Below are positions 20,943-38,870 of a stretch of DNA of 64,000 nucleotides, piece after piece. The notes under the pieces are model-generated. The model did not search any database. It was not told the origin of the DNA and was given only the letters and a program-made list of their open reading frames with translations. This DNA comes from Minisyncoccota bacterium (GTDB taxonomy: Bacteria; Patescibacteriota; Minisyncoccia; UBA6257; 2-01-FULL-56-20): assembly GCA_036510525.1 (NCBI GenBank), contig DATCDU010000034.1:976-64975 (forward strand), given 5' to 3'. The stretch's first letter is position 1, and each line of letters starts with the position of its first letter. A program made the position numbers and the translations under genes.

Positions 20943-20954
20943 AAAAAGCCGTTC

Positions 20955-21019: not shown

Positions 21020-21304
21020 TCACTGCCTAGTGATTAATGGATTCTTTATTGTAGATAAAGAATGAGATCTGTGTTTGTGCTTTGGAGGGTATCGCGGAGC
21101 CGCGAAGGCGGCGAGCGTAAGTGCGCGTTCAGCAGAACGCGACACGTCCCTACAAAGTACAAACACAGATCGAATGCAAGTCAGCATTGGGATGGTTGGC
21201 GTGGATTATTAGTACGTCTTGGCTAAAAACATTGCTATTCTTACACCGAACGCCTATCAACGTCATAGTCTATGACGAAATCACGCATACCTAATCTTGG
21301 GGTG

Positions 21305-21337
<33 letters not shown>

Positions 21338-21456
21338 CTTCCATACATAGCTACCCGGCAATTCACTTGGTAGCAAAGCCGGTAGACCAGAGGTATGTTC
21401 AGCCCAGTCCTCTCGTACTAAGGCCAACTCCCCTCAAGTATGTAACGCCTGCAGCA

Positions 21457-21488
<32 letters not shown>

Positions 21489-22401: not shown

Positions 22402-23065
22402 ACCCAGCTCACGTGCCACTTTAATTGGCGAACAGCCAAACGCTTGGGAGCTTCTACACCCCCGCGCTGTGGCGAGCCGACATCGAGGTGCCGAGCATTG
22501 TCGTCGCTAGGGACGCTCGGACAATACTAGCCTGTTATCCCCGGAGTAGCTTTTATCCGGTGTCTCCGGCCTTTCTATGAAGGGCCGTCGGGTCACTAAC
22601 TTCTGCTTTCGCACCTGCTCGTCTTGTATGACTCGCAGTCAAGCCAGCTTTTGCGTTTGCACGTCCTGCCCGATTTCCATCCGGGCTAAGCTGACCTTAA
22701 TAAACTCCTCCGTTACTCTTTTGGAGGAAAACGCCCCATTTAAACTGCCTACCAAGCACTGTCTTAGTGTAGTTTCCCCGAAGGGTTCTCCACCAGTTAG
22801 ACGTTAAAGTTTTAAAAATGGCTGTTTCATTGTCGGATCCACGTCACCCAAAAGCGACGCTTCAAATCCTCACCACTACGCTACGTAGTAAAACTCTAAA
22901 ATCAATGCCAAGCTGCAGTAAAGCTTCCGGGGTCTTTTCGTCCCGCTGCAGGTATCCCGCGTCTTCACGGGAATCGCATTTTCACCGAGCTCATCGTTGA
23001 GACAGTTCTCCGGTCGTTACACCTTTCGTGCGCTTCGGAACTTACCCGAAAAGGAATTGCGCTCA

Positions 23066-24320
23066 AACATGTTACAACACTTTTTGTTGGCCAAAACATT
23101 TCTGCTTGACTCTCTATGTCGCCATAGAGTTCGGACTATATCTTATTCAACTGATCGTTGAATTTCGGCATATAGTCTCTGAGGATTTTCGCTTGCGCGA
23201 ATCTTTCCTGCTGATTGACCGCACCGAACGCATTGTCACTCTTTCGAGTAGCGTCGGATACTGACGGTTATTCCAGCATTTAGCCGAATTTTACTAAGGC
23301 AATGCATTCCGCTCAACCTTAGAACGATTTACTCTGTTATTCTGCTCCGTTTCTAGAGCAACTCTGCATGTCGCCATGCAGTTCGGACTATATCATCTCT
23401 AAATCGCTTTAGAGTCTGGCGTATAGTCTCTGAGGATTTTATTAGATCTTGAACTTGTCCCGAGCAGTATCGAGAATATATTCAATCGAATGTATTCTAA
23501 ATCTTCCTTCGGCATTCATTGAATGAGCCAAGCGGACAATCCGCTCAAATCCTTCTCTGTTGCGATGCAATCCTTCATCCATCATATAAACAATAATGGC
23601 GAACTTCCGAAATGCATCTGCTTTTGTTGCCAACGGATACTGTTCGAAAAAAGGAATAATCTTTTGAATCAGATTATCTCTCCCCTCGACAGTAAGTGAT
23701 AAAACATCACTTCCAGATTTCTTATCGATCCTTCCCGCTCCTAATACTTCACGAAAAAGTTCCAGTAGGTCATGATGGTTTTTGTGCTGATAAATTTGAA
23801 ATTTAGCCAACACAATCCAACCTGATCGTAATGTCGGATGTTTTGCAAACGACACATTGAAACTTCCTTCGCCATCCACAAAACCTGCAAGAAAATATTT
23901 CATGGATTCTTCATCCAATTTTTTCAATTCTTGGTAAGAATTTGCAGCTGGCAAATCTAATAATCTTTCCTGCTGATTATCTGCACCGATCATATTTTCA
24001 CGCTAACACATCAACATTAAATCTTTATTAAAAGATTTTTGATGAGAAAAGCGTAATGTCGGATACTCAGGGTTTCCAGCATTTGGCCAGATTTTATAAC
24101 TACAATCGTTATGTCTATAGTTATCGCTGACATTGACGAGGGCTTGAATCAGTGAGCAGTGTATTGCTACACCACCCCCAATCTTGACCTTCTCGCATCG
24201 GTCAGGTGTCACCCCCTATACATCCTCTTGCGAGTTAGCAGGGAGCTGTGTTTTTGGTAAACAGTCGCCAGAGATTCTTTAGCTGCGGCCCTCTTGCGAG
24301 GGCAGGCCTTATTGCTAACT
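23066..24320 (-). mobile_element. Group I intron region in the 23S helix 69-71 area (E. coli ~1915-1931), probably two adjacent introns or a twintron; one carries a LAGLIDADG ORF
   Basis: The exon GCGGCCGTAA ends near 24320 and the exon GAGCGCAATTCCTTTTCGGGTAAGTTCCG resumes near 23064. The interval holds two copies of the group I catalytic core (an R-like CAGAGACTATA and an S-like AAGATATAGTCC) at 23100-23190 and 23355-23440 on the minus strand. Confidence 0.6.
23442..23993 (-). CDS. LAGLIDADG homing endonuclease (intron-encoded)
   Basis: 183 aa with the motif YFLAGFVDGEGSF. It lies immediately 5' (in the minus orientation) of the intron core. Confidence 0.8.
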   Translation of the reverse strand: MIGADNQQERLLDLPAANSYQELKKLDEESMKYFLAGFVDGEGSFNVSFAKHPTLRSGWIVLAKFQIYQHKNHHDLLELFREVLGAGRIDKKSGSDVLSLTVEGRDNLIQKIIPFFEQYPLATKADAFRKFAIIVYMMDEGLHRNREGFERIVRLAHSMNAEGRFRIHSIEYILDTARDKFKI

Positions 24321-25536
24321 TACGGCCGCTATTTTGCCTAGTTCCTTAACGATGAATCACTCGTTCCCCTTGGGCTACTCGCCCTATCCACCAGTGTCGG
24401 TTTACGGTACGGAGACCATACGCTCGATTTGGCCAGATTTTTCTCGAAAGGCACTTCACAGATGTCGGCTAAGTAAATTCTTAACCTTCTCTCGGTACAC
24501 GCTTGCGCTTAATACAAAGAATGCCAAACCAATAAGGCACATCTGCTTATCTCCTTTGTCCTCTGGTTATGATCGTACGGTCGGGCTGGAATATTAACCA
24601 GCTTCCCATCGACTGCCCCTTTCGGGATTGCCTTAGGACCGCCTCACCCGTGGTTGATTGCCAGTGCCACGGAAACCTTGGATTTTCGGGGTTCCAATTT
24701 CTCATTGGGATTGTGGTTACTCATTCCAACATTTTCTCTTCCGGCCGCTCCAGTCACCCTCGCGGGTTGACCTTCACTGCAGGCCGAAATGCTCTCCTAC
24801 CACGTACACCTCCCGAAGGAAGTGTACATCCGTATCTTCGGTACCATGCTTAGCCCCGGTACATTTTCGGCGCCACGACCCGTCGAATAGTGAGTTGTTA
24901 CACACTCTTTAAAGGATGGCTACCTCTAAGCCAACCTCCTATCTGTCTATGGGTTATGACTACCTTTCACACTTAGCATGGATTTAGGGACCTTAGATGA
25001 CGATCTGGGCTCTTCCCCTCGCGACCACGGAGCTTAGCCCCCGCAGTCTAACTAGCAAGATCTTGACTCTCGGTATTCGGAGTTTGATTGATCGTTCGGT
25101 CTTTCGACCTGTAACGATCATCCAGTGCTCTACCCCCAAGAGGAACTCTTGCCGCCAGTCCTAAAACTGTTTCGGAGAGAACCAGCTATTACGTTATTCG
25201 ATTAGCTTTTCACTCCTTACCTCAGCTCATCCGAAGATTTTGAACAATCAACCGGTTCGGGCCTCCCTCCCGATTTCTCGGGAGTTCACCCTGGCCAAGG
25301 CAAGCTCATAACGCTTCGGGTCTATCTTCTGCTGCATATAGTTCGCCCTATTCAGACTCGCTTTCGCTATGCCTTCACGCTATGCGCGCTTAGACTGCAA
25401 CAAAAAATAAGTCGTTGGATCATTCTTCAATAGGCACACTGTTACACTCGTCCGCGGATTGCTCCGCAGCCGTTCGTGCTTCAGTTCCTTGTAGGCAAAC
25501 GGTTTCAGGTTCTATTTCAACGGCCTCACCGGCCTG

Positions 25537-25573
<37 letters not shown>

Positions 25574-26886
25574 ATCTAGAAAAGTATTTAGCCTTACCTG
25601 ATAGTACAGGTGTATTCCTCCGGAACTGTTTTACTCCGAAGTACTCGAGTTAAAAAACTAAGGAGACCAATTGTTTTCGTCTAGGGGGCTATCACCCGCT
25701 CTGGCGCCGCTTTCCAGACGGCTTTGACTAACAAAAGATTTTTTTACTCCTTCACGAATAGCAAATAACGAAACGCACTGTTTGAAGAGCGCGCTACGTT
25801 ATTTACTAAACAGCGTCTTTAGACTATACCCCAAGGTTGCAAAATAAATCACAACCTTAGTTTGGGCTGTTCCCTGTTCTCTCGCCGATACTTGGGGAAT
25901 AACTGATTTGTTCTTTTTTCCTCCGCTTACTGGAATGTTTTACTTCAGCGGGTACGCGAATCGATTGCTCGAAACAATTGAGGATTACTCAATTAGGTTT
26001 CCCCATTCGGACACCCCCGGATCATAGATTGCTACGCATCTCCCCGAGGCATTTCGTTGCTACGCCACGTCCTTCATCGCCTTTTCTAGTCTAGGCATCC
26101 ACCGTTCGCCCTTATTTGCCAACCATCCCAATGCTGACTTGCTCGTGATGTGCACGGCTTTGAAGTCGTTAAATAAGAATTGACGACCTAAAAGTCATGC
26201 AGCCCACTCGCCATCGTTGATAAAAAAAATCAACGACAACGTTTGACCCTGTCCGTCACGAGAAATTGACTACATATGCGTATGCAGCGATCCGGCCCGC
26301 CCGCGATGCGGACGTTAGCGACCAGACCTAATAGTGACACAGGGTCTCCATATTATGTCCTCCGACTCTACAATTCGGAGTTCCGCCAAATCGGCGAATG
26401 ATTTGAAATAGCACTGCACGGTATCGCGAGACGCCGTAGGATATCAAACGCCAAGAAAAAAATCAGCCGCACACAGCGGCCGCTGACTGCTTCAAAGAAG
26501 CGGCTTCAGCCGGAGTGTTTTGAGAGGATTAAAGTCTTTGCCATTCGTATCTTAGGGATAAGTATACTCAGCTTGAAAAGGGTGTCAAGAGGCATACCTG
26601 CGCGCTCGGCACCAACGCTGAATCCCATGAATAATTTCATTTTTTAGACCATTATGGCATCATTAACCTAGGCGAATTACCCAGGGGAGGTCCCTGTGCA
26701 TTTTTCCATCATTGAAGATCTTTTAGTAACTGCAACTGCGGCGGTCGTCCTGCTCGTAGTTGCATGTGTCCGCTCAGAATCATCGAAAAAATAACGGGCG
26801 AATAGACAGAAGTGTTCTCTAGCCGCCAAGCCGCCGGGCTTCCCAATGGGAAGACCGGCATTTTTTATCGGCTCTCTCGTCCGGAG

Positions 26887-27066: not shown

Positions 27067-27498
27067 TTACTTACTGCCCGTTGTTCCGAATCCCCCGCGA
27101 GTTTTGTTGGGCATGTCATCCAGCTCCTCCCATTCCGGATGCGATATTTTCACAAAAGTGCCCTGCGCGATCCGCTCGCCTTTTTCTATTGCCACCGGCG
27201 CGGCGCTGAAATTATAATAGGCCACCCTGATCTCGTCCTCGTCGCCCGAATAGTCCGGATCAATGATGCCCATGCCGTTCGCCATCATGATCCCTTTTTT
27301 ATGGGTACTGCTCCGCGCGGCGATGAGGAGAAAATGATCCGCCGGCGTCTCGACGGCCACATTCAACGGAACATAGCCGACGGTGTCCGGCGCGATCATC
27401 ACCGCCTCGCGCGCGGTCAGGTCGAACGCCGCCGCGCCCTCGGTCTGCCGCTTGGGCAGCGGCAGGTCTTTATCGAATCGTTTTATTTTGATGTTCAT
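27067..27498 (-). CDS. dut: dUTP diphosphatase
   Basis: 143 aa with the dUTPase motifs (ARSSTHKKGIMMANGMGIIDPDYSGDEDEIRV, RIAQGTFVKI). Confidence 0.9.
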   Translation of the reverse strand: MNIKIKRFDKDLPLPKRQTEGAAAFDLTAREAVMIAPDTVGYVPLNVAVETPADHFLLIAARSSTHKKGIMMANGMGIIDPDYSGDEDEIRVAYYNFSAAPVAIEKGERIAQGTFVKISHPEWEELDDMPNKTRGGFGTTGSK

Positions 27499-28949
27499 TG
27501 TATGTGGTGCTTTTCCTTTATATCGTTATCCATCTCTTCTTCCGCCTCGCGCTTCTTCTTTTGTGCTTGCGCGAATAATTCCTGGAGTTCCCCATCGCTC
27601 TCCTGGTTCAACTCCTTCGCGCGCTTCTCCAGATATTTCTTGTCGTTCTTTTCAGGGTCGTCGATCACCTCTTCCATAAGCGCGTTCAGGATCCATCCCA
27701 CGCGGCGCGATTGCGGGAGGTCGAGGAGTGGCATCAGGTCGTCGCCACGCAGCGCGAGCATCTTCGGCGAAAGCGGATCGCGCTTGACCTTCTCTATCAT
27801 AAAGAGCAAATGGCGCAGGCGATACGGCATCGCCTTCTTAACGCCACTGCCGATGCGATCGGCCTCGCGCACTTTCAAAAGGTCGTCAATATTCTCCGGG
27901 CCCACACGCACCACGAGCCGCCGCACGCCCGCAGGCGAGATCACGCCGGTATCGTAATAGAACATGTGCCTGCGCACGAGATGCGCCACCTGTTCCACAA
28001 AATCTTTCGAGAATCGCAGGCGGTCGAGCATCTTCACCACCATACGCGCGCCAACATATTCGTGTTGATAGAAGGTGGAATTCGCACCGTCACCGCCTTT
28101 CACTTTAGGCTTGCCAACATCGTGGAGCAACGCGGCCATGCGTACGGGCAATGAATAATTTTCTCCTGCGGTGTAATCAAGCGCACGGACGTTGTGCTCA
28201 AAAACGGTATAGATGTGATGCTTGTTCTGCCCAACACCGATCCCGTCGCGCAACTCCGGTAGCACGTAGCGAAGCAGGTCGAGCTCTTCTAATAGGATGA
28301 TCCCCTTCGCGGCATTCGGGGTCATCAAAATCTTCACGAGTTCGTCGCGCACGCGCTCCTTAGCGATCGCCTCCAAGCCACCGGCCAGTTTTACGATCGC
28401 ACGCCGCGTGTTCATCTCGATCTCAAAATCCAGCTCTACGGAAAATCGCACGGCGCGCATCAAGCGCAGGGCATCCTCGGAGAACCGCTCCTCCGGCACG
28501 CCGACCGTGCGGATCACCCGATCCTTAATATCGCGCTCGCCACCGAACGGATCGATCACGTCACCCTTCATGTCCATCGCGAGCGCGTTCACGGTAAAGT
28601 CACGGCGCGAAAGGTCGTCCTCTATATTCTCTGCGAACTTGACCTCATCCGGGTGCCGCTTGTCGGTGTATCGCCCTTCGATGCGGTACGTCGTCACTTC
28701 TATTATTTTCAGGCGCGGGTCTTCGGATTCCGTCTTGATACCGACCGTGCCAAAATCATTCTCGTAGACGCTCTCGGGAAAAAGTTTTTGGACCTGCGCC
28801 GGCTGGGCGTCGGTGGCGACATCCCAATCCTTGGGCTCGCGACCGAGCAGCATATCGCGCACGCAGCCGCCCACGAGATATGCCTCAAACCCCGCCTCGG
28901 CGAGGGCATACGACACCGCAACAACCTCTTTCGGAACGTCGATCTTCAC
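27495..28949 (-). CDS. cca: CCA-adding tRNA nucleotidyltransferase with HD domain
   Basis: 484 aa. The N-terminus has the class II nucleotidyltransferase head (LVGGCVRDMLLGREPKDWDVATDA) and the C-terminus has an HD domain (AALLHDVGKP). Confidence 0.85.
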   Translation of the reverse strand: MKIDVPKEVVAVSYALAEAGFEAYLVGGCVRDMLLGREPKDWDVATDAQPAQVQKLFPESVYENDFGTVGIKTESEDPRLKIIEVTTYRIEGRYTDKRHPDEVKFAENIEDDLSRRDFTVNALAMDMKGDVIDPFGGERDIKDRVIRTVGVPEERFSEDALRLMRAVRFSVELDFEIEMNTRRAIVKLAGGLEAIAKERVRDELVKILMTPNAAKGIILLEELDLLRYVLPELRDGIGVGQNKHHIYTVFEHNVRALDYTAGENYSLPVRMAALLHDVGKPKVKGGDGANSTFYQHEYVGARMVVKMLDRLRFSKDFVEQVAHLVRRHMFYYDTGVISPAGVRRLVVRVGPENIDDLLKVREADRIGSGVKKAMPYRLRHLLFMIEKVKRDPLSPKMLALRGDDLMPLLDLPQSRRVGWILNALMEEVIDDPEKNDKKYLEKRAKELNQESDGELQELFAQAQKKKREAEEEMDNDIKEKHHIQ

Positions 28950-28984: not shown

Positions 28985-30115
28985 CTACCGTACCGTCGCA
29001 CCGAATTCCTTGGCGGTCTCTTCCTCTATATTCTTGTGAAGCACATCTACCTCTTCATTCGTCAGCGTCCGCTCGCTTGAGCGGTACGTGATCCGGTACG
29101 CGTAGCTCTTTTTGTCGGCGCCGAATTTTTCGTCATTCGCGTATTCGTCGATCAGCGCCACTTGTTCCACGAGGTCCCCCGCAATGTCGCGGACGAGATC
29201 GAAATAATCATTCGGCGCGAACGTCTTCGGCACGATGAACGAGATGTCGCGAATGACGGGCGGATATTTGCTCACCTCCACAAACTTTGTGCCCATGTGC
29301 AGCTGTTTCTTCACCCGCTCGTCGGTGGACCAGAGGAGCCGTATATCTGGAAGATCGGTGCTGATCATCGCGAGTCGCTCGAGGCCGAAACCGAACGCCC
29401 ACGCGTTGTATCCCTCCACACCGAATTTTTTGAACACGCTCTGCTTCGTCATGCCACCGCCCATGATCTCCAGCCACTGGCCGTTCACTTCAACCTCGAT
29501 CTGCAGGGATGGATCAGTATATGGGAATGTATCATCTAAAAAGCGGAATTTCACATCAGCGCCGAAGAGCGCGCGAACGATCTCGGAAAGCGCGGCGCGC
29601 AGGTCGTCGATCGTGAGCGGTGCGGTATCTGCGGGCGTCATGTACCATCCGCCGAACTGGTGGAAGATGTTCATGTGCTTGCGATCGATCTCGTCCTTGC
29701 GGTACACCTTTCCGTAACAGACGACGCCTAACTTCTCGCGCCGCGCGATGCGCTCCTTCACTTCCGGCAGCTGCGTGTAGTAATACCACATGACCGTGTC
29801 GTGCGTGCGCAAAATATTCTTGTCGTCCGCATAGTACGTGTCCGAGGTGCTCCGCGCCGGATGGTCGGCGGCAAAATCAAAAAGGTCGAAGCTGATTGAG
29901 GCAGGGACGATCTCCGGAATGATGATATTGTCGAATCCTTTGAGCCCCGGCGTGTTGCACGCGGTTTGCACTATTTCATAGAGCGGACTGCCCGGCGTGC
30001 GCGAAAGGTCGGGCATCGCAAGATAGCGTTTGATGCGCGCCGCCTCCGCATCAGTACGCTTGTCGACCGTCGCCAAAATCCTGTTCTGCTCGTCGAGAGG
30101 AATGCGATATTCCAT
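28985..30115 (-). CDS. pheS: Phenylalanyl-tRNA synthetase, monomeric mitochondrial-type (class II catalytic core plus C-terminal FDX-ACB anticodon-binding domain)
   Basis: 376 aa. PheS class II motifs are present (FDLFDFAADHPARS, FRFLDDTFPYTDPSLQIEVEV, GFGLERLAMI). There is no N-terminal coiled coil. The C-terminal ~95 aa (DISFIVP...SYAYRITYRSSERTLTNEEVDVLHKNIEE) match the FDX-ACB fold found at the C-terminus of mitochondrial PheRS and of PheT. Confidence 0.75.
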   Translation of the reverse strand: MEYRIPLDEQNRILATVDKRTDAEAARIKRYLAMPDLSRTPGSPLYEIVQTACNTPGLKGFDNIIIPEIVPASISFDLFDFAADHPARSTSDTYYADDKNILRTHDTVMWYYYTQLPEVKERIARREKLGVVCYGKVYRKDEIDRKHMNIFHQFGGWYMTPADTAPLTIDDLRAALSEIVRALFGADVKFRFLDDTFPYTDPSLQIEVEVNGQWLEIMGGGMTKQSVFKKFGVEGYNAWAFGFGLERLAMISTDLPDIRLLWSTDERVKKQLHMGTKFVEVSKYPPVIRDISFIVPKTFAPNDYFDLVRDIAGDLVEQVALIDEYANDEKFGADKKSYAYRITYRSSERTLTNEEVDVLHKNIEEETAKEFGATVR

Positions 30116-31060: not shown

Positions 31061-32095
31061 TTAATGTCTTTTTATGATAGTGACAAGTCCTTTGTTTGCA
31101 TCCACTTCTATAAGATCGCCATCACTAAGTATTTCGGTAGCGATCTTTGTTCCGATGATACATGGCTTCTTGAGTTCTCTGGCGACGATAGCCGCATGAC
31201 AAGTGACACCACCTTCGTCGGTAACAATAGCCACAGCTCGCTTCATGGCAACCACATAATCCGGCATCGTCATGGGGCTTACCAAAACTTCACCCTCTTT
31301 TAGTTTAGAGACCTCTTCCCGTTTTTTAATGATCCGAACTTTCCCCCGCGCAATCCCCGGATAGGCAACTTTGCCTTTGAATTCCGAAATGTTAGTTTTC
31401 TTTTCGGAGGAAACAATATCAATATCAAAGATCTTTTCCATATCGGGGATACCCTTTCCTGTATATAATTTAGCATTTGCAAAACTATACTTTTTAGCGC
31501 GATCTTCCAGCTCCTGTTTTGAGGGTAACTTGTTCGAAACGATTTCCTTCAATAGTAATGTATTAGCCAATGCGCCGAGCTTGGGATAAATTTTTCTTAG
31601 GGATTTCCTGATCACGACGTCGCTATCAGGAATCATGCGCTCGTTATTGATACGGGCAGTATGAGTAAGTTTGAATTCTCTACTTTTCGGATCAACCATT
31701 TCCATTATCCACCAAATCGCCTCGTACCATGCCCACACATCACGGAGTCGTACAAGATACTTCACCAGCTCAGCGTGATTGAGCGTTTTTCTTTTGGCCC
31801 ACACTGGCTTTATTAATCTCGCCCGTTGATTAAATTCACCAGCGATCTTTTCAACAAATTTTTTATCTTTCTTTATCAATCTACGCAACTCACTATTGAT
31901 CCAGTCCAATCCCTTGGGATTGAAATAATCGGTCACGATACCATTCTCACGGATAAAGATTTGGAACGGTAATTCGGGGTTTGTCTTCTTTGTCCATTGG
32001 CGCGGATCGGTTGTCTCAGCGCGCGCCCACGTTTCTATGAGTGGCAACGTGAAGTCACGGGCGAAATAACGGGAATAAATTCTCTCATTTTTCAT
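31061..32095 (-). CDS. Module 5 of the swivel-domain array: unknown N-terminal domain plus C-terminal PEP-utilising-enzyme mobile (phosphohistidine) domain
   Basis: 344 aa. The C-terminal ~100 aa (KGKVAYPGIARGKVRIIKKREEVSKLKEGEVLVSPMTMPDYVVAMKRAVAIVTDEGGVTCHAAIVARELKKPCIIGTKIATEILSDGDLIEVDANKGLVTIIK) is the PEP-utilisers mobile domain, with its catalytic His in TCHAAI. The start overlaps the upstream gene by 11 nt. Confidence 0.7.
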   Translation of the reverse strand: MKNERIYSRYFARDFTLPLIETWARAETTDPRQWTKKTNPELPFQIFIRENGIVTDYFNPKGLDWINSELRRLIKKDKKFVEKIAGEFNQRARLIKPVWAKRKTLNHAELVKYLVRLRDVWAWYEAIWWIMEMVDPKSREFKLTHTARINNERMIPDSDVVIRKSLRKIYPKLGALANTLLLKEIVSNKLPSKQELEDRAKKYSFANAKLYTGKGIPDMEKIFDIDIVSSEKKTNISEFKGKVAYPGIARGKVRIIKKREEVSKLKEGEVLVSPMTMPDYVVAMKRAVAIVTDEGGVTCHAAIVARELKKPCIIGTKIATEILSDGDLIEVDANKGLVTIIKRH

Positions 32096-33614
32096 TGGAT
32101 CGTTTTATAATTTTCACCGTTCCCTTCTCTGCATCCACTTCTACAAGATCTCCGTTCTTCAAAACCTTTGTAGCGATCTTCGTTGCGATGACGCACGGCT
32201 TGCCCAATTCCCGCGACATGATCGCGGCATGGGACAAAAGGCCGCCTTCATCCGTGACGATCGCGCTCGCCCGCTTCATAGCCGGCACGTAATCGGGATT
32301 CGTCATCGGACAAACCAAAATCTCTCCTTCTCGAATGGCATGCGCTTCGGATGGCTGCAGCGCGATCCTTACCTTCGCCCGGCTAAATCCCTTGCAAGCT
32401 ATTTGTCCCTTTAATTCAGTTATGGAATCGTCAACCGTATTGAATGACTGATCGATCCACTGGCTGATCTCGTGCCCTTTTACGCCCACGGCCATATACT
32501 GCTGGCCGTTCAAGATCATCATGGCGAAACCTTTTTTCCTTTCTTGAATAGTTTTCGTCGCAATGTCTTCTTGCTTTTCAAGCGCCCGGATAATCTCGCT
32601 CGAAAGGAGATATTGTGTGTCTTCGAATTTCACACCGATGCGCTTGGCCACCAACTGCAGGAAATCAAGATAGCGCGAAGAGGCCTTATAGGCCTCTTCG
32701 ATCCCGGCAGTGAGCACATATCCAAGCTCCCGCGCGTTTTCAACGTCGCGAAGAAATTTCCCATCATTCCGCCCCAATGCGAGAATTTTTCTAGCCAATT
32801 TCTGATTTTTTACATTCGCCTTCTTCTGTATTTCAAATGTCTCTTTGAAACCGCTCTTTATGGCGTCCGTGACGCGCCGGACAAGCTCGTTGTACGTCAT
32901 GGGGAAAAGCGGGTTAAGAAGGAATGTCGTGAGCCAATCATATTTTTTGAGGTACGCCCGAGCAGCTTTTTGAAACGCCGAATCGCGTGCAAAATTTTTC
33001 TTTTTCTCTGCGATGCACACCAGCGAATACAACGCCCCTTGCTCAAGCTGAAATCCTGTTTTCTTGATCGGGAAAACGACGTTCAAAAGCGCTTCATCGA
33101 AATCGGTCAGCTTCTCAATTTGTTTGCGATATCGTTCCAAGCCGTGCTTAACTTTGTCCGTCAACATATTCTCACTCGAAAGATAATAGGGATACCAAAA
33201 CCATGGAATGGCCTTGAGAAATGCCGCATCCATACGCCGCCAATATTTCGCCAACTGCCCGTTGGAGATCTTTTTATCTTTGATCGCGATATTTATCTCG
33301 TCAGCAACCTCGTTCAAGCTTTTGGGAACTTCAACTGATGATCTGAGAACCGTCCACAGCGCGCGGGGATTCTTCAATTTCTCCCGCAACTTCTGAAGCA
33401 TGATCTGCCGTTGTTTGGGATTATTATGCCCCTTGCTCGAATCGGTAAAAAGATAATCGTATGTATAGAGGTCAATACCGATCTCGCTGGGTAAGTGGGT
33501 CGCGATCGCCCGACAAAACAAATCGGCGAGCAGGATCGGCTGCTCCCCTCGTTGCTGAAATTCAAACTCCCAATTTTTGAGATGGACGAGTTTCTTTTCG
33601 ATTGGTTTTAACAT
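32085..33614 (-). CDS. Module 4 of the swivel-domain array: unknown ~400-aa domain plus C-terminal PEP-utilising phosphohistidine domain
   Basis: 509 aa. The C-terminus (KGFSRAKVRIALQPSEAHAIREGEILVCPMTNPDYVPAMKRASAIVTDEGGLLSHAAIMSRELGKPCVIATK) is a swivel domain with a conserved His. Confidence 0.7.
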   Translation of the reverse strand: MLKPIEKKLVHLKNWEFEFQQRGEQPILLADLFCRAIATHLPSEIGIDLYTYDYLFTDSSKGHNNPKQRQIMLQKLREKLKNPRALWTVLRSSVEVPKSLNEVADEINIAIKDKKISNGQLAKYWRRMDAAFLKAIPWFWYPYYLSSENMLTDKVKHGLERYRKQIEKLTDFDEALLNVVFPIKKTGFQLEQGALYSLVCIAEKKKNFARDSAFQKAARAYLKKYDWLTTFLLNPLFPMTYNELVRRVTDAIKSGFKETFEIQKKANVKNQKLARKILALGRNDGKFLRDVENARELGYVLTAGIEEAYKASSRYLDFLQLVAKRIGVKFEDTQYLLSSEIIRALEKQEDIATKTIQERKKGFAMMILNGQQYMAVGVKGHEISQWIDQSFNTVDDSITELKGQIACKGFSRAKVRIALQPSEAHAIREGEILVCPMTNPDYVPAMKRASAIVTDEGGLLSHAAIMSRELGKPCVIATKIATKVLKNGDLVEVDAEKGTVKIIKRSNEK

Positions 33615-33629
33615 GATCAGGGCGTTGGC

Positions 33630-36600
33630 CTATTTTAAGATTTTCACGATACCCTTGTCCGCATCCACCTCCACCATGTCGCCGTCTTTCAGCACCTGCG
33701 TCGCGATCTTTGTGCCTACAACGCATGGCACTTTGAGCTCACGGCTTGCGATGGCGGCGTGGCATGTCGTCCCACCCTCATCGGTAACGACCGCTGCTGC
33801 CTTCTTCATGATCGGAACGTAATCGGGATTGGTCATCTCGGTGACTAACACGTCGCCCGGCGCAAAATCCTTCATATCCGCAAACGAGCGGATCTTTTTC
33901 ACGCGGCCCCTCACGACACCTTTGTACGCCGGCGTTCCTTTGATCTCTGCAATCCCCTCGGCCGTCGCTTTTTCGAGCTCAATATTATTCTCCGAGAGTA
34001 AAGCGTCCAAACGCTCTATGGGATAGATCGTACCGTTCAGCATAACACAGCCATTTCTCCGTGAGCGAACCAGGGCGAGAACTTTTTCCCGGGAATTCCC
34101 CGCCAATTTAGCAACCTCGCCCGGCGCGATAAAAAACGTTATGTCCTTCAGCTCGGGGAAACGATCATGCCAAAATGCCACCATCACTTTATTCATTTTC
34201 TCGGTGTACTTCTCCGATTCCTCTCGATACCGTAGAAATTTCTTGCGAAGCGCCGGGCTTACCTCGGCCATGTCGGGAATGGTGAATGCCGTATTCATCG
34301 CCGACCACCAATCAACAAGATGCTCATAATAATTGTTGAAGTCTTTGACGGTCCGTATTTTCTTTTTATCCAAAAGGTAGGGCGATATCACCTTCCAGTT
34401 TGCATCGAGCGTTTTTACGAAACGCCGGACAAGCGTCGGGTCGCTCTTGAGTTTTTCTTTTAAAAGAGTGTTGATGATCGCCAGCTCCGCCGAAGAGTAC
34501 CACACCGATCCCTTTTCGCCGGGAGGAGGGACGATGAATAGATTTTGTCTTACGTTGTGGCCCAGAAAATTTTTCCATCCGCGGCGGTCGCTATCGTTCC
34601 ACATCGAGAAATAGAACAGTGTCTTCTCGCGAGAATAAATCTTCGAAAGGATATTCGTAATTCCCCGGACTTCGCTTAATGGCTTGAACTCTGTTTTGCC
34701 GCCCATGGTCGTCAAAGCCCACCCTTCTTTTCTCTTTTTTATTTCTTCCAAGTCCTTCCTGGTAAGTTTTTCGATACGATACACCTCCTCGGGCATCAAA
34801 AGGCCCGCGACCGCGGTATGCCGGGGATATTTCTTTTCGAAGAAATCCCTGTATACTCTATCAATCTCATTGGAATATTCCTGCGTCGATTCGCGAACCT
34901 TCAATGCCTTTGCCCGTAATCGCTTCGGAATCTCTTCCCTATCCGGTACCCCAAAAAGATATGCCATCGGAACCCACCACTGGACGCAGTCATTATAATA
35001 CCCTGCTAATTCCTTCAGATTCTTTATTTTCTTCTTCTTTGATATATAAAGCCATAGTTTCTTCCAGTAACGATAAAAATCGGCGATGATCACATCGAGT
35101 AATTTTGGATCCTCAATGATGGCCTGGGATATCTTCTTAAAGATCTCTTCGAGCTCATCGAGGTCGAAATAGATATCCACCACGCCGGAGGCATCGCGCA
35201 GGAAGGCCATGTTCCGGAAATTCGTCCCCGGAATATATCTCTCAAAATGGTCGCGATCCGCTTCATTCCAAATACTCGCGTAAAAGAAAGAGTGCTCGCG
35301 GGTCATGAATTTAAAGAGTTTCACGGATGAAGGCGGCATTCCAGCACTGTCACCATGTAAGATCCGGACCACGCCCCTATTCGCGTCCACCTCCACCACG
35401 TCCCCGTCTTTCAGCACCTGCGTAGCGATCTTCGTGCCAATAATGCAGGGCTTCTTCAGCTCTCTCGCCACGATACCGGCGTGGCAGGTGATCCCACCCT
35501 CATCGGTGACGAACGCCGCCGCGCGACGCATAGTGGGTAGAAAATCAGGAGTCGTCATCGGGGAAACAATGATGTCTCCCTCGCGAACTTCATCGAGCTG
35601 ATCACGTCGGCGCAATATTTTCACCGGGCCCGTTGCTATGCCCTTTTGCGCGATCTCGCCTTTAATAACTCCGCTGTTATTCCCGACAATCGCATCTCCT
35701 TTAAAAGAAAATTGCGGATTATTTTTCTCAAAATCAGATAGTGTACCTAAAAAAAGATCTTTGCCATCCACAATAAGTGAGTGTAGCTTGCGATCCTCAA
35801 GCTCCGGTGCGGCCGGAATCTTTTTTATCTCATCTATGAATATCGTCGTTTCGTAATTTTTCGTTCGAGGATATATTTCGGAAATGCTCTTTCTGATCGC
35901 AATATCGTTTTGCGCGAAAAATTCATCTTTATTGCGCATCGCCAATGCCTTCGCCCGTATACCCTTCGGTGTCTTATCATTGACGGCAGAATAATAGTAG
36001 AAAACGAAATATGGCATCGCCTCATCCGAAAGCTTGATGAGTTGAGCGAGTTTATTCACGCCCAGCTTCTTCTCTTTCCAAAGCTTGTGGATAATCGCCA
36101 ATTTCGCTTTATATTTTTCGAGGACATCGTCGATGAATTTGGGATCCTCTTCATTCTTCTTCAAGACCACGTCCTCAAGCCATTCGGTGGCGCGAAGATT
36201 TTCCCAGATCTCGATACTTCCCTGATTCATATAATGGATGATCCCCGGTAAATAGGGGTTCTTCCACCCAAATTCTTTTTCAACTCCCCGCGAACATCCG
36301 ATCGCCCACAACTCTTGCATGATATAGGTGGTATCACGCGTGTAGATTTTCTCGAAAGTCACTTGACCACTCGATCGTTCCAAAATTCTTACGACGCCTT
36401 TGTCTGCATCCACCTCCACCATATCGCCACTCTTGATAACACGACTGGCATTCTTCGTCCCGATGATGCACGGCTTTTTCATCTCGCGGGCGATGATGGC
36501 GGCATGACACGTAATACCCCCTTGATCGGTCACGAACGCCGATGCTTTTTTCATCGCCGGGACATATTCAGGGGTTGTCTGGTTGGCCACCAATATATCC

Positions 36601-38870
36601 CCCTCGTTAAAGGCCTCGATCTCGGACATATTCGTTGCCACGCGGGCGATGCCGCGCACCAATCCCTTGTAGGCAACCGTACCCCGGATCTCATCCACAC
36701 CCAAAGAAGAAGGAAAAAAGTGTTCGACCGAAATTTCTTTTTCGTACTCAGAACGGGATATCACGCGGCATTCCCCTGCAGAGAAAACGAACAGTGCTCC
36801 CTTGTCGCGGCGCAGACGAACCTCATTCCAATCTATGGCGGCAAACTTCTTCGGATCTAAAAATTCGGATGGGGTAATGTAAAAAATCAATTCCGGATCA
36901 ATGTCGTTCTTGGCCGCAGTCACACCAAGCGCTTCGAAGAATAAAGAATTGCCTCGCAACACGCCTTCTTTTCGCTTATCCTGGATGTGGGTGAATATCT
37001 CCGAGATCTCTATCACACGACGCAACTCTTTGGACACGCCAAGCGTTCGCATCAACTCCGCCTTTTTCTTTTTGTTCTCAGATATTCTTGTCTTTTCCTC
37101 CCGGATTTTCGCTGCAATCCCGTTACCCAATTTTTTGGATTCATCGAGAGCTTCTTGATATACATCTTCGGGAGTCAGCCGGACGCAAATATGATAGCCT
37201 GCCCTCGCCCAGAAGAAATCGTGCACGATAGGCCGACACTCCCCGCGTAAGAGATCTTTTTTGGAACCCTTCGCACCGCCCCGATGGATACGTTGGGCTA
37301 CTTCCAATTTACGAACCTCAAATTCATTCACAAAACTTCCGTATGCAGGTGCCGTAAGGAGTGCGACCACTTCCGGCGTCGCCTTCTTCCCCAATTCATC
37401 TTTAATAAACCGTTCGAGCCAATCTTCTTCCGCATCGTTCAAAAAAGTATCGACGACGTATGCGTAACTCGTATGGCGGACGATCGCATCGTGGATCGGC
37501 TGGAACTTTTTACGAAGCTCGGACGGAGACATTGTGGAAAGGTCAGCATGGGCAACAACCTCCCAATGCTTCAGGAAAATGTCCCATTCATGCTCCCAGT
37601 CTCCGTAGAACTCTTTTGTGAAGTTAGGGTTTTTGATTGCCTCGGCCAATACCTCTTTTCTTTTTTGAACCATCAAGTCCGCATTCCAAAACCAATCGAA
37701 GCGGTCGTTCCTGTTATAGTTTTGGAAAAAGAGACCATAAGGAATTGCGTATGGCGTCGCCTCGCTGCCATACGCTATACCCATGCCTTGTTGAGCAATA
37801 CCGAAAGGATAGCCGGAGAAGCTCTTGTTATACCAATGCGTGTTGGTCTTCATATCTTCCATGGCTTCCTCAAAGGTGTAGCCCTTCGCCATGCTCGTAT
37901 CCCCGGACTTCTCAGGTGCCACAACATCCATCAGCGTCGTGATCGGCCGCGATTGCACAATATAGAACTTTTCTTTCTCAAGTGCCCACTCGATGTCGCA
38001 CGGGAAGCCGTAGTGCTCTTCGATCCGCAGGATGAGCTCCGAGAGCTCAAGGACCTGCTTATCCGAAAGCGCCTGTTGCTCGGCTTTTGATGCAGGAATC
38101 TCCTTCCATTCGTTCTCCGCCTTCGGCGAACGGTAAAGTCCGCGCGTTTTCGCCTGCACCATGCGCTCGATGATCCGCCGAGGCGTTTTCTCGACAACAT
38201 AGCTGTCCGGTGTCACCTGGCCGGATACGATCGCCTCGCCGAGGCCGTAGCTCGCTTCGATGATCAGCTGATTGCGATCCTGTGTGACGGGGTGCACCGA
38301 AAACGCGATGCCGGAGATCTCGCTCTCCACCATTTTTTGAACGACGACCGCGACCGAAATCTTTTGTTTATGGAGATCTTTCTCAAATCGATAGAAAATG
38401 GCGCGCGGCGTAAAGAGCGACGCCCAGCAGCGCTTCACATTTTCCAAAACCTTCGACTGCGATGTGTTGAGAAAGCTGTCGAGCTGGCCCGCCCACGCAG
38501 CGGATGCACTGTCCTCCGCCGTAGCGCTCGAACGCACCGCAACGTACTTCGCGCCAAGTTTTTTAAACGACGAAGTTATCTCCCGCGCGATATCCTTCGG
38601 CATCGTTGCCGCAAGGATGAGCGCCCGAATCTTTTCCGAAGCGTTCTCAACGGTGTGGATCTCTTCGTGATTGACGGAATCCAGGATCGCATCGATGTCG
38701 GCGGCCAGCCCGGTCTCTTCTATAAACTTCTCGAATGAGGCGGACAGGATGACGAATCCCGGCGGCACGGGGATCCCGGCTTGGGTCATCTCGCCCAAGG
38801 AAGCGCCCTTGCCTCCGGCAAGACCCACATCGCTTTTGTTCAACTCCTTGAAATTGCGGAGGAGTTCCAT
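33630..38870 (-). CDS. Giant multidomain phosphotransferase-like protein: an N-terminal PPDK/PEP-synthase-type ATP-grasp nucleotide-binding domain followed by three repeats of [unknown domain + PEP-utilising phosphohistidine swivel domain]; no PEP-utilisers C-terminal TIM barrel
   Basis: 1746 aa. Residues 1-~320 (GGKGASLGEM...CDIEWALEKEKFYIVQSRPITT) match the PPDK_N ATP-grasp fold. The three swivel domains (…GGITCHAAIIAREMKKPCIIGTK…, …GGITCHAGIVARELKKPCIIGTK…, …GGTTCHAAIASRELKVPCVVGTK…) are encoded at about nt 36370-36690, 35340-35650 and 33633-33953. Confidence 0.75.
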   Translation of the reverse strand: MELLRNFKELNKSDVGLAGGKGASLGEMTQAGIPVPPGFVILSASFEKFIEETGLAADIDAILDSVNHEEIHTVENASEKIRALILAATMPKDIAREITSSFKKLGAKYVAVRSSATAEDSASAAWAGQLDSFLNTSQSKVLENVKRCWASLFTPRAIFYRFEKDLHKQKISVAVVVQKMVESEISGIAFSVHPVTQDRNQLIIEASYGLGEAIVSGQVTPDSYVVEKTPRRIIERMVQAKTRGLYRSPKAENEWKEIPASKAEQQALSDKQVLELSELILRIEEHYGFPCDIEWALEKEKFYIVQSRPITTLMDVVAPEKSGDTSMAKGYTFEEAMEDMKTNTHWYNKSFSGYPFGIAQQGMGIAYGSEATPYAIPYGLFFQNYNRNDRFDWFWNADLMVQKRKEVLAEAIKNPNFTKEFYGDWEHEWDIFLKHWEVVAHADLSTMSPSELRKKFQPIHDAIVRHTSYAYVVDTFLNDAEEDWLERFIKDELGKKATPEVVALLTAPAYGSFVNEFEVRKLEVAQRIHRGGAKGSKKDLLRGECRPIVHDFFWARAGYHICVRLTPEDVYQEALDESKKLGNGIAAKIREEKTRISENKKKKAELMRTLGVSKELRRVIEISEIFTHIQDKRKEGVLRGNSLFFEALGVTAAKNDIDPELIFYITPSEFLDPKKFAAIDWNEVRLRRDKGALFVFSAGECRVISRSEYEKEISVEHFFPSSLGVDEIRGTVAYKGLVRGIARVATNMSEIEAFNEGDILVANQTTPEYVPAMKKASAFVTDQGGITCHAAIIAREMKKPCIIGTKNASRVIKSGDMVEVDADKGVVRILERSSGQVTFEKIYTRDTTYIMQELWAIGCSRGVEKEFGWKNPYLPGIIHYMNQGSIEIWENLRATEWLEDVVLKKNEEDPKFIDDVLEKYKAKLAIIHKLWKEKKLGVNKLAQLIKLSDEAMPYFVFYYYSAVNDKTPKGIRAKALAMRNKDEFFAQNDIAIRKSISEIYPRTKNYETTIFIDEIKKIPAAPELEDRKLHSLIVDGKDLFLGTLSDFEKNNPQFSFKGDAIVGNNSGVIKGEIAQKGIATGPVKILRRRDQLDEVREGDIIVSPMTTPDFLPTMRRAAAFVTDEGGITCHAGIVARELKKPCIIGTKIATQVLKDGDVVEVDANRGVVRILHGDSAGMPPSSVKLFKFMTREHSFFYASIWNEADRDHFERYIPGTNFRNMAFLRDASGVVDIYFDLDELEEIFKKISQAIIEDPKLLDVIIADFYRYWKKLWLYISKKKKIKNLKELAGYYNDCVQWWVPMAYLFGVPDREEIPKRLRAKALKVRESTQEYSNEIDRVYRDFFEKKYPRHTAVAGLLMPEEVYRIEKLTRKDLEEIKKRKEGWALTTMGGKTEFKPLSEVRGITNILSKIYSREKTLFYFSMWNDSDRRGWKNFLGHNVRQNLFIVPPPGEKGSVWYSSAELAIINTLLKEKLKSDPTLVRRFVKTLDANWKVISPYLLDKKKIRTVKDFNNYYEHLVDWWSAMNTAFTIPDMAEVSPALRKKFLRYREESEKYTEKMNKVMVAFWHDRFPELKDITFFIAPGEVAKLAGNSREKVLALVRSRRNGCVMLNGTIYPIERLDALLSENNIELEKATAEGIAEIKGTPAYKGVVRGRVKKIRSFADMKDFAPGDVLVTEMTNPDYVPIMKKAAAVVTDEGGTTCHAAIASRELKVPCVVGTKIATQVLKDGDMVEVDADKGIVKILK

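What the first reader, a model, noticed from the sequence alone, without database searches (positions are those of the whole stretch)
28985..30115. Mitochondrial-type monomeric phenylalanyl-tRNA synthetase (PheS catalytic core fused to an FDX-ACB anticodon-binding domain)
Bacterial PheRS is normally an alpha2-beta2 enzyme in which the FDX-ACB domain sits at the C-terminus of the ~800-aa beta subunit (PheT). Here a 376-aa protein has the three class II PheS motifs and no N-terminal coiled coil. It ends with a ~95-aa FDX-ACB-like domain (DISFIVP…SYAYRITYRSSERTLTNEEVDVLHKNIEE), the same architecture as mitochondrial PheRS. If no pheT exists elsewhere in the genome, this organism uses a minimal single-chain PheRS without the editing domain.
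Basis: partly seen in the sequence, partly recalled or inferred. Interest (0 to 1): 0.6.

Follow-up and report, generated by a model that had tools for sequence, protein, structure and literature searches.

The report
Single-chain phenylalanyl-tRNA synthetase in a CPR bacterium
This ultra-small (CPR/Paceibacteria) bacterium encodes a one-piece phenylalanyl-tRNA synthetase built like the mitochondrial enzyme, an architecture that reviews describe as organelle-only; it is probably the cell's everyday Phe-charging enzyme and lacks any proofreading domain.

Summary
Window 28985-30115 (minus strand) encodes a 376-aa protein with a PheS-type class II core (PF01409, residues 60-271) fused to an FDX-ACB anticodon-binding domain (PF03147, 282-376). 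It has no coiled-coil or beta-subunit domains. An AlphaFold model (pLDDT 86.6) superposes on human mitochondrial PheRS (TM 0.78).

The host is a Paceibacteria (CPR) bacterium, and the family occurs across that class at 62-93% identity. All catalytic residues but one are invariant, and dN/dS is 0.044, lower than for neighbouring essential genes.

Both domains place all single-chain forms in one clade, which implies one ancient fusion. The query belongs to a bacterial sister clade (93% bootstrap), so it is not a true mitochondrial-family member. It is also not NCBI's 'mystery ligase' SrmL, which has an altered Phe pocket. SrmL occupies the same gyrB-thrS chromosomal slot in other Paceibacteria.

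No pheS or pheT was found in the window, its contig, or 1.83 Mb of flanks from 160 relatives. A positive control shows that test is weak, so whole-genome absence of pheT remains untested.

Best reading (0.7): a housekeeping, editing-free, single-chain PheRS.

The parts
28985..30115 (-). Complete CDS of the single-chain PheRS (376 aa + TAG stop at 28985-28987)
   Evidence: ORF list; translation and coordinates re-checked; identical protein P0001 in public data, named 'hypothetical protein VIJ29_04190 [Candidatus Paceibacterota bacterium]'
29939..30115 (-). N-terminal region, residues 1-59: three short helices (8-19, 23-33, 44-53) with a clade-specific basic motif (R20, D22, A25, R27, R30, L32, D36, L37, R39 invariant in close relatives). 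Not a PheS-type coiled coil
   Evidence: AlphaFold secondary structure; invariant columns; no Pfam coiled-coil hit; no similarity to the E. coli PheS N-terminus (E 4.5)
29303..29938 (-). Class II PheS-type catalytic core, residues 60-271
   Evidence: PF01409 E 4.8e-49; aligns to E. coli PheS 121-326 at 32% identity
29852..29863 (-). HPAR (H85-R88): His equivalent to human His119, which anchors the substrate alpha-amino group
   Evidence: H85 and R88 invariant in 160 family genes; residue roles from PMC5521548
29648..29713 (-). Motif 2, GKVYRKDEIDRKHMNIFHQFGG (135-156): ATP-binding Arg139 and Gln153 are conserved, but Gly155 replaces the usual Glu/Asp (human Glu159)
   Evidence: R139, D141, D144, H147, F151, H152, Q153 invariant; position 155 is G in 144, D in 15, E in 1 of 160; no co-varying compensator
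29507..29527 (-). Phe-ring pocket FPYTDPS (197-203), equivalent to Thermus F258/F260/V261 and human F232/F234/T235
   Evidence: F197, P198, T200, P202, S203 invariant; Y199 in 158 of 160; pocket roles from PMC3275996
29366..29401 (-). Motif 3, WAFGFGLERLAM (239-250), including Ala240 (the position I recall as E. coli Ala294, a specificity determinant; own knowledge) and Arg247
   Evidence: A240, G242, G244, R247 invariant
29273..29302 (-). Inter-domain linker, residues 272-281; by homology the hinge about which the anticodon-binding domain swings
   Evidence: Lower pLDDT (65-78) in this stretch; about 160 degree hinge rotation described for the human enzyme in PMC5521548
28988..29272 (-). FDX-ACB anticodon-binding domain, residues 282-376 (beta-alpha-beta-beta-alpha-beta)
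   Evidence: PF03147 E 2.4e-25; fold; 50% identical to the human FARS2 domain, 26-31% to five PheT C-termini
27495..28949 (-). Context: CCA-adding enzyme gene 35 nt downstream on the same strand. This arrangement is conserved only among the closest relatives
   Evidence: Pfam PolyA_pol + HD; same order in L001-L004; directly downstream in 11 of 70 GTDB loci
27067..27498 (-). Context: dUTPase gene, overlapping the CCA-enzyme gene by 4 nt and followed by tRNA-Pro and the 23S/5S rRNA genes

Best explanation
The gene encodes a functional single-chain phenylalanyl-tRNA synthetase that most likely serves as this Paceibacteria cell's housekeeping PheRS. By homology with human mitochondrial PheRS, the class II core (residues 60-271) binds Phe and ATP and forms Phe-AMP. 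The phenyl ring is held edge-to-face by F197 and Y199 over a glycine floor, with A240 limiting pocket size. The alpha-amino group is anchored by H85 and, through water, Q153. R139 and R247 bind ATP. The C-terminal FDX-ACB domain (282-376) reads the GAA anticodon of tRNA-Phe and swings about the 272-281 linker from the closed form (the one predicted here) to an open, tRNA-bound form, so that one chain does the work of the bacterial (alpha-beta)2 tetramer. With no B3/B4 domain there is no cis-editing of Tyr-tRNA-Phe. Shown: architecture, fold, residue conservation, purifying selection, class-wide distribution, and a single origin shared with the mitochondrial type. Inferred: Phe/tRNA-Phe specificity, monomeric state, hinge motion, and above all that no canonical pheS/pheT exists elsewhere in the genome.
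For: Domain architecture and motifs. Closest solved relatives are human mtPheRS by sequence (E about 3e-61) and by fold (TMq 0.78 against about 0.52 for PheS chains). Eighteen catalytic or pocket positions are invariant across 160 family genes at 62-93% identity. dN/dS is 0.044, lower than for the CCA enzyme, GatA and dUTPase in the same genome pair. It is the most conserved of the genes shared with an 882-kb relative (92.6%). The family is found throughout Paceibacteria (Kaiser-, Adler-, Nomura-, Zambryski-, Taylor-, Giovannoni-, Liptonbacteria), including four closed 0.81-0.88-Mb chromosomes, with at least 439 further metagenomic copies, and it often sits in a conserved gyrB-thrS neighbourhood, which argues for long vertical inheritance. 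It has zero hits in IMG/VR, so it is cellular and not viral. No pheS/pheT in the window, about 74 kb of its contig, or 1.83 Mb of flanks. A second CPR lineage that uses genetic code 25 has the same enzyme.
Against: Whole-genome absence of pheS/pheT was not tested. The flank survey has little power: RpoBC, S6 and SSB also score 0 of 160, and other essential genes score 1-11. The literature states that many CPR bacteria have a PheRS beta subunit (PMC5370408). The protein falls below the curated cut-offs of all three NCBIfam models: pheS_mito 232/258, SrmL 228/300, pheS 146/237. The motif-2 acidic residue that helps hold the substrate amino group through water in the human enzyme is Gly in 90% of the family. 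In some Paceibacteria the same chromosomal slot holds SrmL, with a remodelled Phe pocket. That shows the gene can escape PheRS constraint in some lineages and hints that another PheRS may exist there. No tRNA-Phe gene was recovered to check identity elements. There are no biochemical data.
Confidence: 0.7

Rival explanations
1. It is a second, auxiliary PheRS that coexists with a canonical pheS/pheT pair elsewhere in the genome, for example an inhibitor-resistant or condition-specific copy, as is known for duplicated synthetases in other bacteria (own knowledge).
For: Whole-genome pheST absence is untested and the flank survey is weak. Many CPR bacteria have PheRS-beta. A 42%-identical homologue sits in an ordinary Oligoflexia chromosome context, a lineage expected (own knowledge) to have canonical pheST. 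SrmL in the same slot suggests that relaxed constraint is possible.
Against: A redundant gene would be unlikely to be the most conserved gene in its neighbourhood (dN/dS 0.044), or to be kept across a whole class of 0.8-Mb streamlined genomes with an invariant active site. No pheS/pheT was seen in about 1.9 Mb sampled.
Confidence: 0.2
2. It is not a PheRS but a PheS-derived ligase with a different substrate or acceptor, like NCBI's 'PheS-related mystery ligase SrmL'.
For: NF051887 (SrmL) scores 227.6 bits, nearly equal to pheS_mito. SrmL is also a Paceibacteria family with the same architecture and occupies the same gyrB-thrS slot. The query family has Gly at the motif-2 acidic position. It groups weakly with SrmL in the core tree (64%).
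Against: The score is below the SrmL cut-off (228 vs 300), while a true SrmL scores 376. SrmL carries H85->N, F197->H and W239->L pocket changes, whereas the query keeps the canonical PheRS residues, invariant across 160 genes. The Gly/Asp position toggles among close relatives with no compensator, so it looks tolerated rather than adaptive. The anticodon-binding domain is 50% identical to that of human mtPheRS.
Confidence: 0.07
3. It is a recently transferred or contaminating eukaryotic (mitochondrial) or viral PheRS gene rather than a native bacterial gene.
For: Best database matches outside CPR are mitochondrial PheRS. Short single-chain forms occur on giant-virus and other large viral contigs.
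Against: The gene lies mid-contig between bacterial genes (CCA enzyme, dUTPase, rRNA, GatA/B) with matching GC content. It forms a 93%-supported bacterial clade outside the mitochondrial/viral clade, lacks the mitochondrial insertion and presequence, shows conserved synteny across a bacterial class, and has no IMG/VR hits.
Confidence: 0.02

Closest known systems
Mitochondrial (organellar) monomeric PheRS: human FARS2 / yeast MSF1; AARS Online 'PheRS-M'; TIGR00469
   Same: One chain made of a PheS-type catalytic module plus an FDX-ACB (B8-like) anticodon-binding domain. No coiled coil, no beta-subunit domains, no editing site. Same predicted closed-state fold (TMq 0.78 to 3CMQ). Pocket FP[FY]T.PS, motif 2/3 arginines and Ala240 are conserved. 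The ACB domain is 50% identical. Both domains are monophyletic with it relative to canonical PheS/PheT.
   Different: Bacterial host (CPR). Separate sister clade (93%). No 30-50-aa insertion between motif 2 and the following helix, and no presequence. A different N-terminal module with a clade-specific basic motif. Tyr instead of Phe at the second pocket aromatic. Gly instead of Glu at the motif-2 acidic position. Below the TIGR00469 cut-off.
Canonical bacterial PheRS, (alpha-beta)2: PheS (TIGR00468) + PheT (TIGR00472)
   Same: Homologous catalytic core (32% identity to E. coli PheS 121-326) and homologous anticodon-binding domain (26-31% to PheT C-termini). Presumably the same reaction.
   Different: Two genes and about 1,120 aa per heterodimer, against one gene of 376 aa. 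The query lacks the alpha coiled coil and beta domains B1-B7, including the B3/B4 editing site. Scores 146 and 74 bits, against cut-offs of 237 and 403.
NCBIfam NF051887 'PheS-related mystery ligase SrmL'
   Same: Also a Paceibacteria/Patescibacteria family of about 400 aa with core + FDX-ACB. In several genomes it lies in exactly the slot (UvrD-like, ligase, gyrB, thrS, L32, NusB, RNase III, SMC) that holds the query-type gene in others. No sampled locus has both.
   Different: SrmL has a remodelled amino-acid pocket (NPGRS for HPARS, KHPYTIEG for FPYTDPS, Leu for Trp239) and sits on a long separate branch. The query scores 228 against the cut-off of 300, while a true member scores 376.
Virus-encoded short single-chain PheRS (giant-virus MAGs and other large viral contigs in IMG/VR)
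   Same: Same two-domain architecture, 340-380 aa, without the mitochondrial insertion.
   Different: These pass the TIGR00469 cut-off and group with the mitochondrial clade, not with the query's clade. The query family has no IMG/VR hits.

Membership tests
Single-chain (mitochondrial-type) PheRS architecture, PheRS-M | PheS-type class II catalytic core with motifs 1-3 | tested here: met
   PF01409 E 4.8e-49, residues 60-271; motifs located
Single-chain (mitochondrial-type) PheRS architecture, PheRS-M | FDX-ACB (B8-like) anticodon-binding domain fused C-terminally on the same chain | tested here: met
   PF03147 E 2.4e-25, full-length match at 282-376; ferredoxin-like fold in the model
Single-chain (mitochondrial-type) PheRS architecture, PheRS-M | No coiled-coil N-terminus and no beta-subunit B1-B7 or editing domains | tested here: met
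   Only two Pfam domains in 376 aa; N-terminus unrelated to E. coli PheS
Single-chain (mitochondrial-type) PheRS architecture, PheRS-M | Overall fold of solved human mtPheRS | tested here: met
   Foldseek: 3CMQ TMq 0.78, E 4e-33, about 400 aligned columns
Single-chain (mitochondrial-type) PheRS architecture, PheRS-M | Active as a monomer; charges tRNA-Phe with Phe | not testable with these tools
   Needs biochemistry; only residue conservation could be shown
TIGR00469 pheS_mito (equivalog of the eukaryotic mitochondrial enzyme) | Score at or above the curated cut-off (258.35 bits) | tested here: not met
   232.3 bits. A 61%-identical relative, P0121, reaches 264.3
TIGR00469 pheS_mito (equivalog of the eukaryotic mitochondrial enzyme) | Phylogenetic placement inside the mitochondrial clade, with the core insertion and presequence | tested here: not met
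   Separate bacterial clade, 93% bootstrap; insertion length 0
Bacterial PheS alpha subunit (TIGR00468) | Score at or above the cut-off (237.45 bits) and an N-terminal coiled coil | tested here: not met
   145.6 bits; no coiled-coil domain
Bacterial PheS alpha subunit (TIGR00468) | Partner pheT gene adjacent | tested here: not met
   No PheT-like sequence in the 64-kb window other than the gene's own FDX-ACB tail; none in about 74 kb of the contig or in 160 related loci
Bacterial PheS alpha subunit (TIGR00468) | Partner pheT gene anywhere in the genome | not testable with these tools
A positive control shows the flank sample is underpowered
NF051887 SrmL 'PheS-related mystery ligase' | Score at or above the curated cut-off (300 bits) | tested here: not met
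   227.6 bits; a true member, P0269, scores 375.8
NF051887 SrmL 'PheS-related mystery ligase' | Remodelled amino-acid pocket (N for H85, H for F197, L for W239) | tested here: not met
   The query has HPARS / FPYTDPS / WAFG, invariant in its family
NF051887 SrmL 'PheS-related mystery ligase' | Core + FDX-ACB architecture in Patescibacteria, next to gyrB-thrS | tested here: inconclusive
   The architecture is shared, and the query's family occupies the same slot in 18 tandem and 78 divergent loci. In this window, however, the gene lies next to the CCA-enzyme gene instead

The most novel reading that the evidence does not exclude
The alpha-core + B8 fusion that defines 'mitochondrial' PheRS arose once, in bacteria. 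A whole bacterial class (Paceibacteria), plus at least one code-25 CPR lineage, uses it as its only PheRS and so translates Phe codons with no synthetase editing. The eukaryotic mitochondrial enzyme and the viral copies descend from the same pre-formed single-chain gene rather than from an independent fusion in early eukaryotes. NCBI's 'mystery ligase' SrmL would then be an in-place, re-specialised descendant of that gene.
Probability: 0.3. Interest if true: 0.8.

Novelty: new member of a known kind. Interest (0 to 1): 0.6.

Why it matters
Reviews and the AARS Online classification treat single-chain PheRS as an organellar speciality ('the only known monomeric class II CAM enzyme') and treat bacterial PheRS as invariably (alpha-beta)2.

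- **Bacterial clade:** a deeply branching, class-wide bacterial clade with the same fused architecture would change that picture.
- **Origin of mitochondrial PheRS:** it gives a concrete, testable bacterial sister group.
- **Fidelity without editing:** if pheT is truly absent, there is a large group of free-standing cells that live without PheRS editing, which bears on how reduced genomes tolerate Tyr or meta-Tyr mischarging.
- **Annotation:** NCBI labels these proteins 'hypothetical' and JGI labels them 'alpha chain'. Marker sets that expect pheS/pheT would undercount completeness.
- **SrmL:** the result supplies a starting hypothesis for the curated 'mystery ligase'.

Tried and rejected
1. 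**Ancestral pheST slot.** I tested whether the gene sits in the classical thrS-infC-rpmI-rplT-pheST position. The 'ThrRS' tblastn hits near it in 44 loci are, in the two loci annotated (L070, L161), a roughly 410-aa tRNA-synt_2b/HGTP protein. The order there is DnaE, that synthetase, a small ORF, gyrB, then PheRS, with no L20/L35 hits. Rejected.
2. **Short forms as huge-phage genes**. Revised: IMG/VR places many on giant-virus MAGs and on a 1.47-Mb viral genome. Whether the carrier is a phage or a giant virus is unresolved for L011 and L013.
3. **N-terminal hairpin as a vestigial PheS coiled coil.** No detectable similarity (E 4.5).
4. **A compensating residue for Gly155.** No position co-varies with it.
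5. **Direct search for pheS/pheT.** Nothing in the window, the contig or 160 flanks. A positive control showed the negative is underpowered. I could not obtain a Paceibacteria PheT seed, because the homolog search lists only near neighbours of the query.
6. **Co-occurrence of SrmL and the query type in one MAG**, tested through locus-tag prefixes and contig lengths. None appear among the 120 listed relatives. This is not proof.
7. **tRNA-Phe identity elements.** No tRNA-Phe gene in about 1.9 Mb sampled.
8. **Promoter/terminator scan around the gene.** Counts are at shuffle level.
9. **Ten literature searches.** No report of a bacterial single-chain PheRS or of SrmL.
Full report
**1. Observation**

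- Pfam finds a PheS-type class II core (PF01409, residues 60-271, E 4.8e-49) and a complete FDX-ACB domain (PF03147, residues 282-376, E 2.4e-25). There is no PheS coiled-coil or PheT B3_4/B5 domain.
- Motifs 1-3 and the quoted peptides are present.
- Human mitochondrial PheRS chains are the best solved relatives by sequence (E about 3e-61; bacterial PheS about 5e-31; PheT only over the last 100 residues).
- An AlphaFold2 model built on 23 family sequences is confident (pLDDT 86.6, pTM 0.79). It gives a beta-alpha-beta-beta-alpha-beta C-terminal domain.
- The whole chain superposes on the closed form of human mtPheRS (3CMQ, TMq 0.78, E 4e-33). PheS chains cover only the catalytic half (TMq about 0.52).

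**2. Organism and setting**

The window is bacterial. It carries SerRS, ThrRS, MiaA, GatA/GatB, L11, S6, SSB, LigA, MurD, a 23S rRNA interrupted by a group I intron, a 5S rRNA and several tRNAs.

The identical protein is deposited as 'hypothetical protein [Candidatus Paceibacterota bacterium]'. JGI calls relatives 'phenylalanyl-tRNA synthetase alpha chain'.

The gene lies between a histidine-phosphatase-family gene and a CCA-adding-enzyme gene, followed by dUTPase, tRNA-Pro and the 23S/5S rRNA genes. That order recurs in the closest relatives only (11 of 70 GTDB loci).

**3. Distribution and selection**

- A scan of one genome per GTDB species found the family in Kaiser-, Adler-, Nomura-, Zambryski-, Taylor-, Giovannoni- and Liptonbacteria at 65-93% identity. 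This includes four closed chromosomes of 808-882 kb.
- A metagenome scan found at least 439 more copies.
- Against an 882-kb relative, this is the most conserved shared gene: 92.6% aa identity, against 90.3% for the CCA enzyme, 87.9% for GatA and 86% for dUTPase.
- Its dN/dS is the lowest of the four genes compared: 0.044 against 0.066-0.095.
- Across 160 family genes at 62-93% identity, these positions are invariant: H85, R88, R139, D141, D144, H147, F151, H152, Q153, F197, P198, T200, P202, S203, A240, G242, G244, R247. Y199 is present in 158.
- These map onto the residues that the Safro group's structures identify for Phe and ATP binding (PMC3275996; PMC5521548).

One departure stands out. 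The motif-2 acidic residue (human Glu159) helps hold the substrate amino group through an ordered water. It is Gly in 144, Asp in 15 and Glu in 1 of the 160 genes. No position co-varies with it, and the Asp-bearing members are scattered through the family. I read this as a tolerated loss of a secondary contact, but it remains a caveat.

**4. Relationships**

An exhaustive search of 1.84 billion cluster representatives found only 211 with E<=1e-30. Of 101 full-length top hits, 85 have both domains.

Neighbour-joining trees gave the following (100 bootstraps; five canonical PheS or PheT outgroups from E. coli, Acinetobacter, Staphylococcus, Listeria and a Ruminococcus phage):

- All single-chain cores are monophyletic (100%).
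- All single-chain FDX-ACB domains are monophyletic relative to the PheT C-termini (77%).
- The query's ACB domain is 50% identical to human FARS2's and 26-31% identical to PheT's.

So the fusion happened once. Within the single-chain clade, the query family groups with P0121, with a pair that includes a code-25 CPR protein, and with an Oligoflexia protein. This 'bacterial-type' clade has 93% support and lacks the mitochondrial insertion. Human FARS2 lies deep in the other clade. These are distance trees with modest outgroup sampling, and the deep order within the other clade is unresolved (bootstraps of 2-55%).

**5. Family membership**

The protein falls below every relevant curated cut-off: pheS_mito 232/258, SrmL 228/300, pheS 146/237. 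It therefore works like, and is built like, mitochondrial PheRS, but it is not a member of that equivalog.

It is also not SrmL. A true SrmL (P0269, 376 bits) has NPGRS for HPARS, KHPYTIEG for FPYTDPS and Leu for Trp239.

**6. An unexpected link to SrmL**

SrmL's relatives are themselves Paceibacteria (Nomurabacteria, Minisyncoccia).

- Four of the five SrmL loci examined read UvrD-like, (small genes), SrmL, gyrB, thrS (convergent), L32, NusB, RNase III, SMC.
- Query-type loci such as L082 and L093 have the same order with the query-type gene in SrmL's place. Flanking proteins are 63-76% identical.
- gyrB adjoins the query-type gene in 96 of 160 loci.
- No locus has both genes. None of the SrmL MAGs' locus tags or contig lengths appear among the 120 nearest relatives of the L082 protein.

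The two families are alternative occupants of one slot. What charges tRNA-Phe in SrmL lineages is unexplained.

**7. The pheT question**

- E. coli PheS and PheT queries hit nothing in the window except the gene itself.
- There is nothing in about 74 kb of the 89-kb contig.
- There is nothing in 1.83 Mb of non-redundant sequence from 160 related loci.
- However, a positive control with the window's own essential genes shows that RpoBC, S6 and SSB also score 0 of 160, and others score 1-11. The negative result therefore carries little weight.
- PMC5370408 notes that many CPR bacteria do have PheRS-beta.
- The tools could not read a whole genome, and I could not obtain a Paceibacteria PheT seed.

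Sole-PheRS status thus rests on inference. A redundant gene is unlikely to be the most constrained gene in its neighbourhood across a whole class of 0.8-Mb genomes.

**8. Literature**

Ten full-text searches found no report of a bacterial single-chain PheRS or of SrmL. The 2010 Safro review and AARS Online (2024) present the single-chain form as mitochondrial or organellar.

**9. Verdict**

This is a real, strongly constrained, single-chain PheRS-type gene of bacterial (CPR) origin.

- Functional single-chain PheRS acting as the housekeeping enzyme, without cis-editing: confidence 0.7.
- Auxiliary copy alongside pheST: 0.2.
- Different substrate, SrmL-like: 0.07.
- Eukaryotic or viral import or contamination: 0.02.

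I rate it a new member of a known kind, with interest 0.6. The architecture and likely mechanism are known. Its presence as a class-wide bacterial lineage, sister to the mitochondrial enzyme, appears unreported and would revise a textbook generalisation if pheT proves absent.

Noticed in passing
L224 10001-11194; L226 1705-2898; L227/L228 10001-11203; compare L082 and L093 10001-11131: NCBI's 'PheS-related mystery ligase SrmL' is a Paceibacteria family. It sits in the same UvrD-like / gyrB / thrS / L32 / NusB / RNase III / SMC slot that holds the query-type single-chain PheRS in other Paceibacteria, and no sampled locus has both. Its Phe pocket is remodelled (H->N, F->H, W->L).
   Followed up: yes
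L182-L221 (IMG/VR); L011 10001-11047; L013 10001-11065: Short (340-380 aa) single-chain PheRS genes that pass the mitochondrial TIGR00469 cut-off lie on large viral contigs, including giant-virus MAGs and a 1.47-Mb viral genome. They branch at the base of the mitochondrial clade.
   Followed up: partly
L097 5845-6930 (GenBank LR745206.1, 634,780-bp 'uncultured phage'): A huge-phage genome encodes an SrmL-like single-chain protein (pocket SHYYT). It groups with true SrmL at 98% bootstrap.
   Followed up: partly
L015 9463-10833; L016 154-1524: A 456-aa relative (P0132) has 13 in-frame UGA codons. Several align with conserved glycines, including the motif-3 Gly, which indicates genetic code 25 (Gracilibacteria/Absconditabacteria-type CPR). 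The public collection had translated them as Trp.
   Followed up: partly
L014 10001-11245 (Oligoflexia MAG JAIBBV010000034.1): A 42%-identical single-chain homologue lies in an ordinary non-CPR bacterial chromosome context, where it is presumably an extra copy beside canonical pheST.
   Followed up: no
window 29648-29713 (residue 155): The motif-2 acidic residue that is nearly universal in PheRS is Gly in 90% of the Paceibacteria family and Asp/Glu in the rest, with no compensating change.
   Followed up: yes
L070 5728-6957; L161 6580-7821: Some Paceibacteria have a roughly 410-aa ThrRS-like protein that aligns only to residues 176-578 of a 582-aa ThrRS. It therefore lacks the N-terminal TGS/editing region, which may be a second editing-less synthetase in this group.
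   Followed up: partly
window 20828-26125: The 23S rRNA gene (22342-26125, minus strand) spans about 860 nt more than the model. It contains a group I intron (23112-23340) and a LAGLIDADG_1 ORF (23442-23993). A LAGLIDADG_2 ORF (21579-22247) lies between the 23S and 5S genes. No 16S gene is in the window.
   Followed up: partly
window 50320-50982: A third LAGLIDADG-type ORF (LAGLIDADG_3) lies between LigA and tRNA-Asp, outside any rRNA gene.
   Followed up: no
window 10000-16752: A single 2,250-aa ORF carries both RpoB (Rpb2_1-7) and RpoC (Rpb1_1...) domains, so it is a fused beta-beta' RNA polymerase subunit.
   Followed up: no
window 31061-38870: A 1,746-aa protein with a PPDK_N ATP-binding domain and three PEP-utiliser mobile domains is followed by two paralogues (509 and 344 aa) that keep only the mobile domain. 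This block, together with two ABC transporters and TspO, is absent from the syntenic region of the 882-kb relative L001.
   Followed up: no
window 9287-9361: ARAGORN calls a tRNA of unknown identity with a two-base anticodon on the plus strand, between the SSB and S6 genes. Rfam does not report it at the gathering threshold, so it may be a false positive.
   Followed up: no
L039 12245-12487; L024 and L028 (contigs of MAG CAYUBE01): One locus has a partial second copy of the FDX-ACB part (residues 296-376, 72% identity) 1.1 kb downstream of the gene. One MAG carries two full copies (83% and 79% identity to the query) on different contigs, which may reflect a mixed bin.
   Followed up: no
window 54631-55635: A 334-aa AMP-binding enzyme ORF matches only the C-terminal half of the Pfam profile (from position 198), so it may be truncated.
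   Followed up: no
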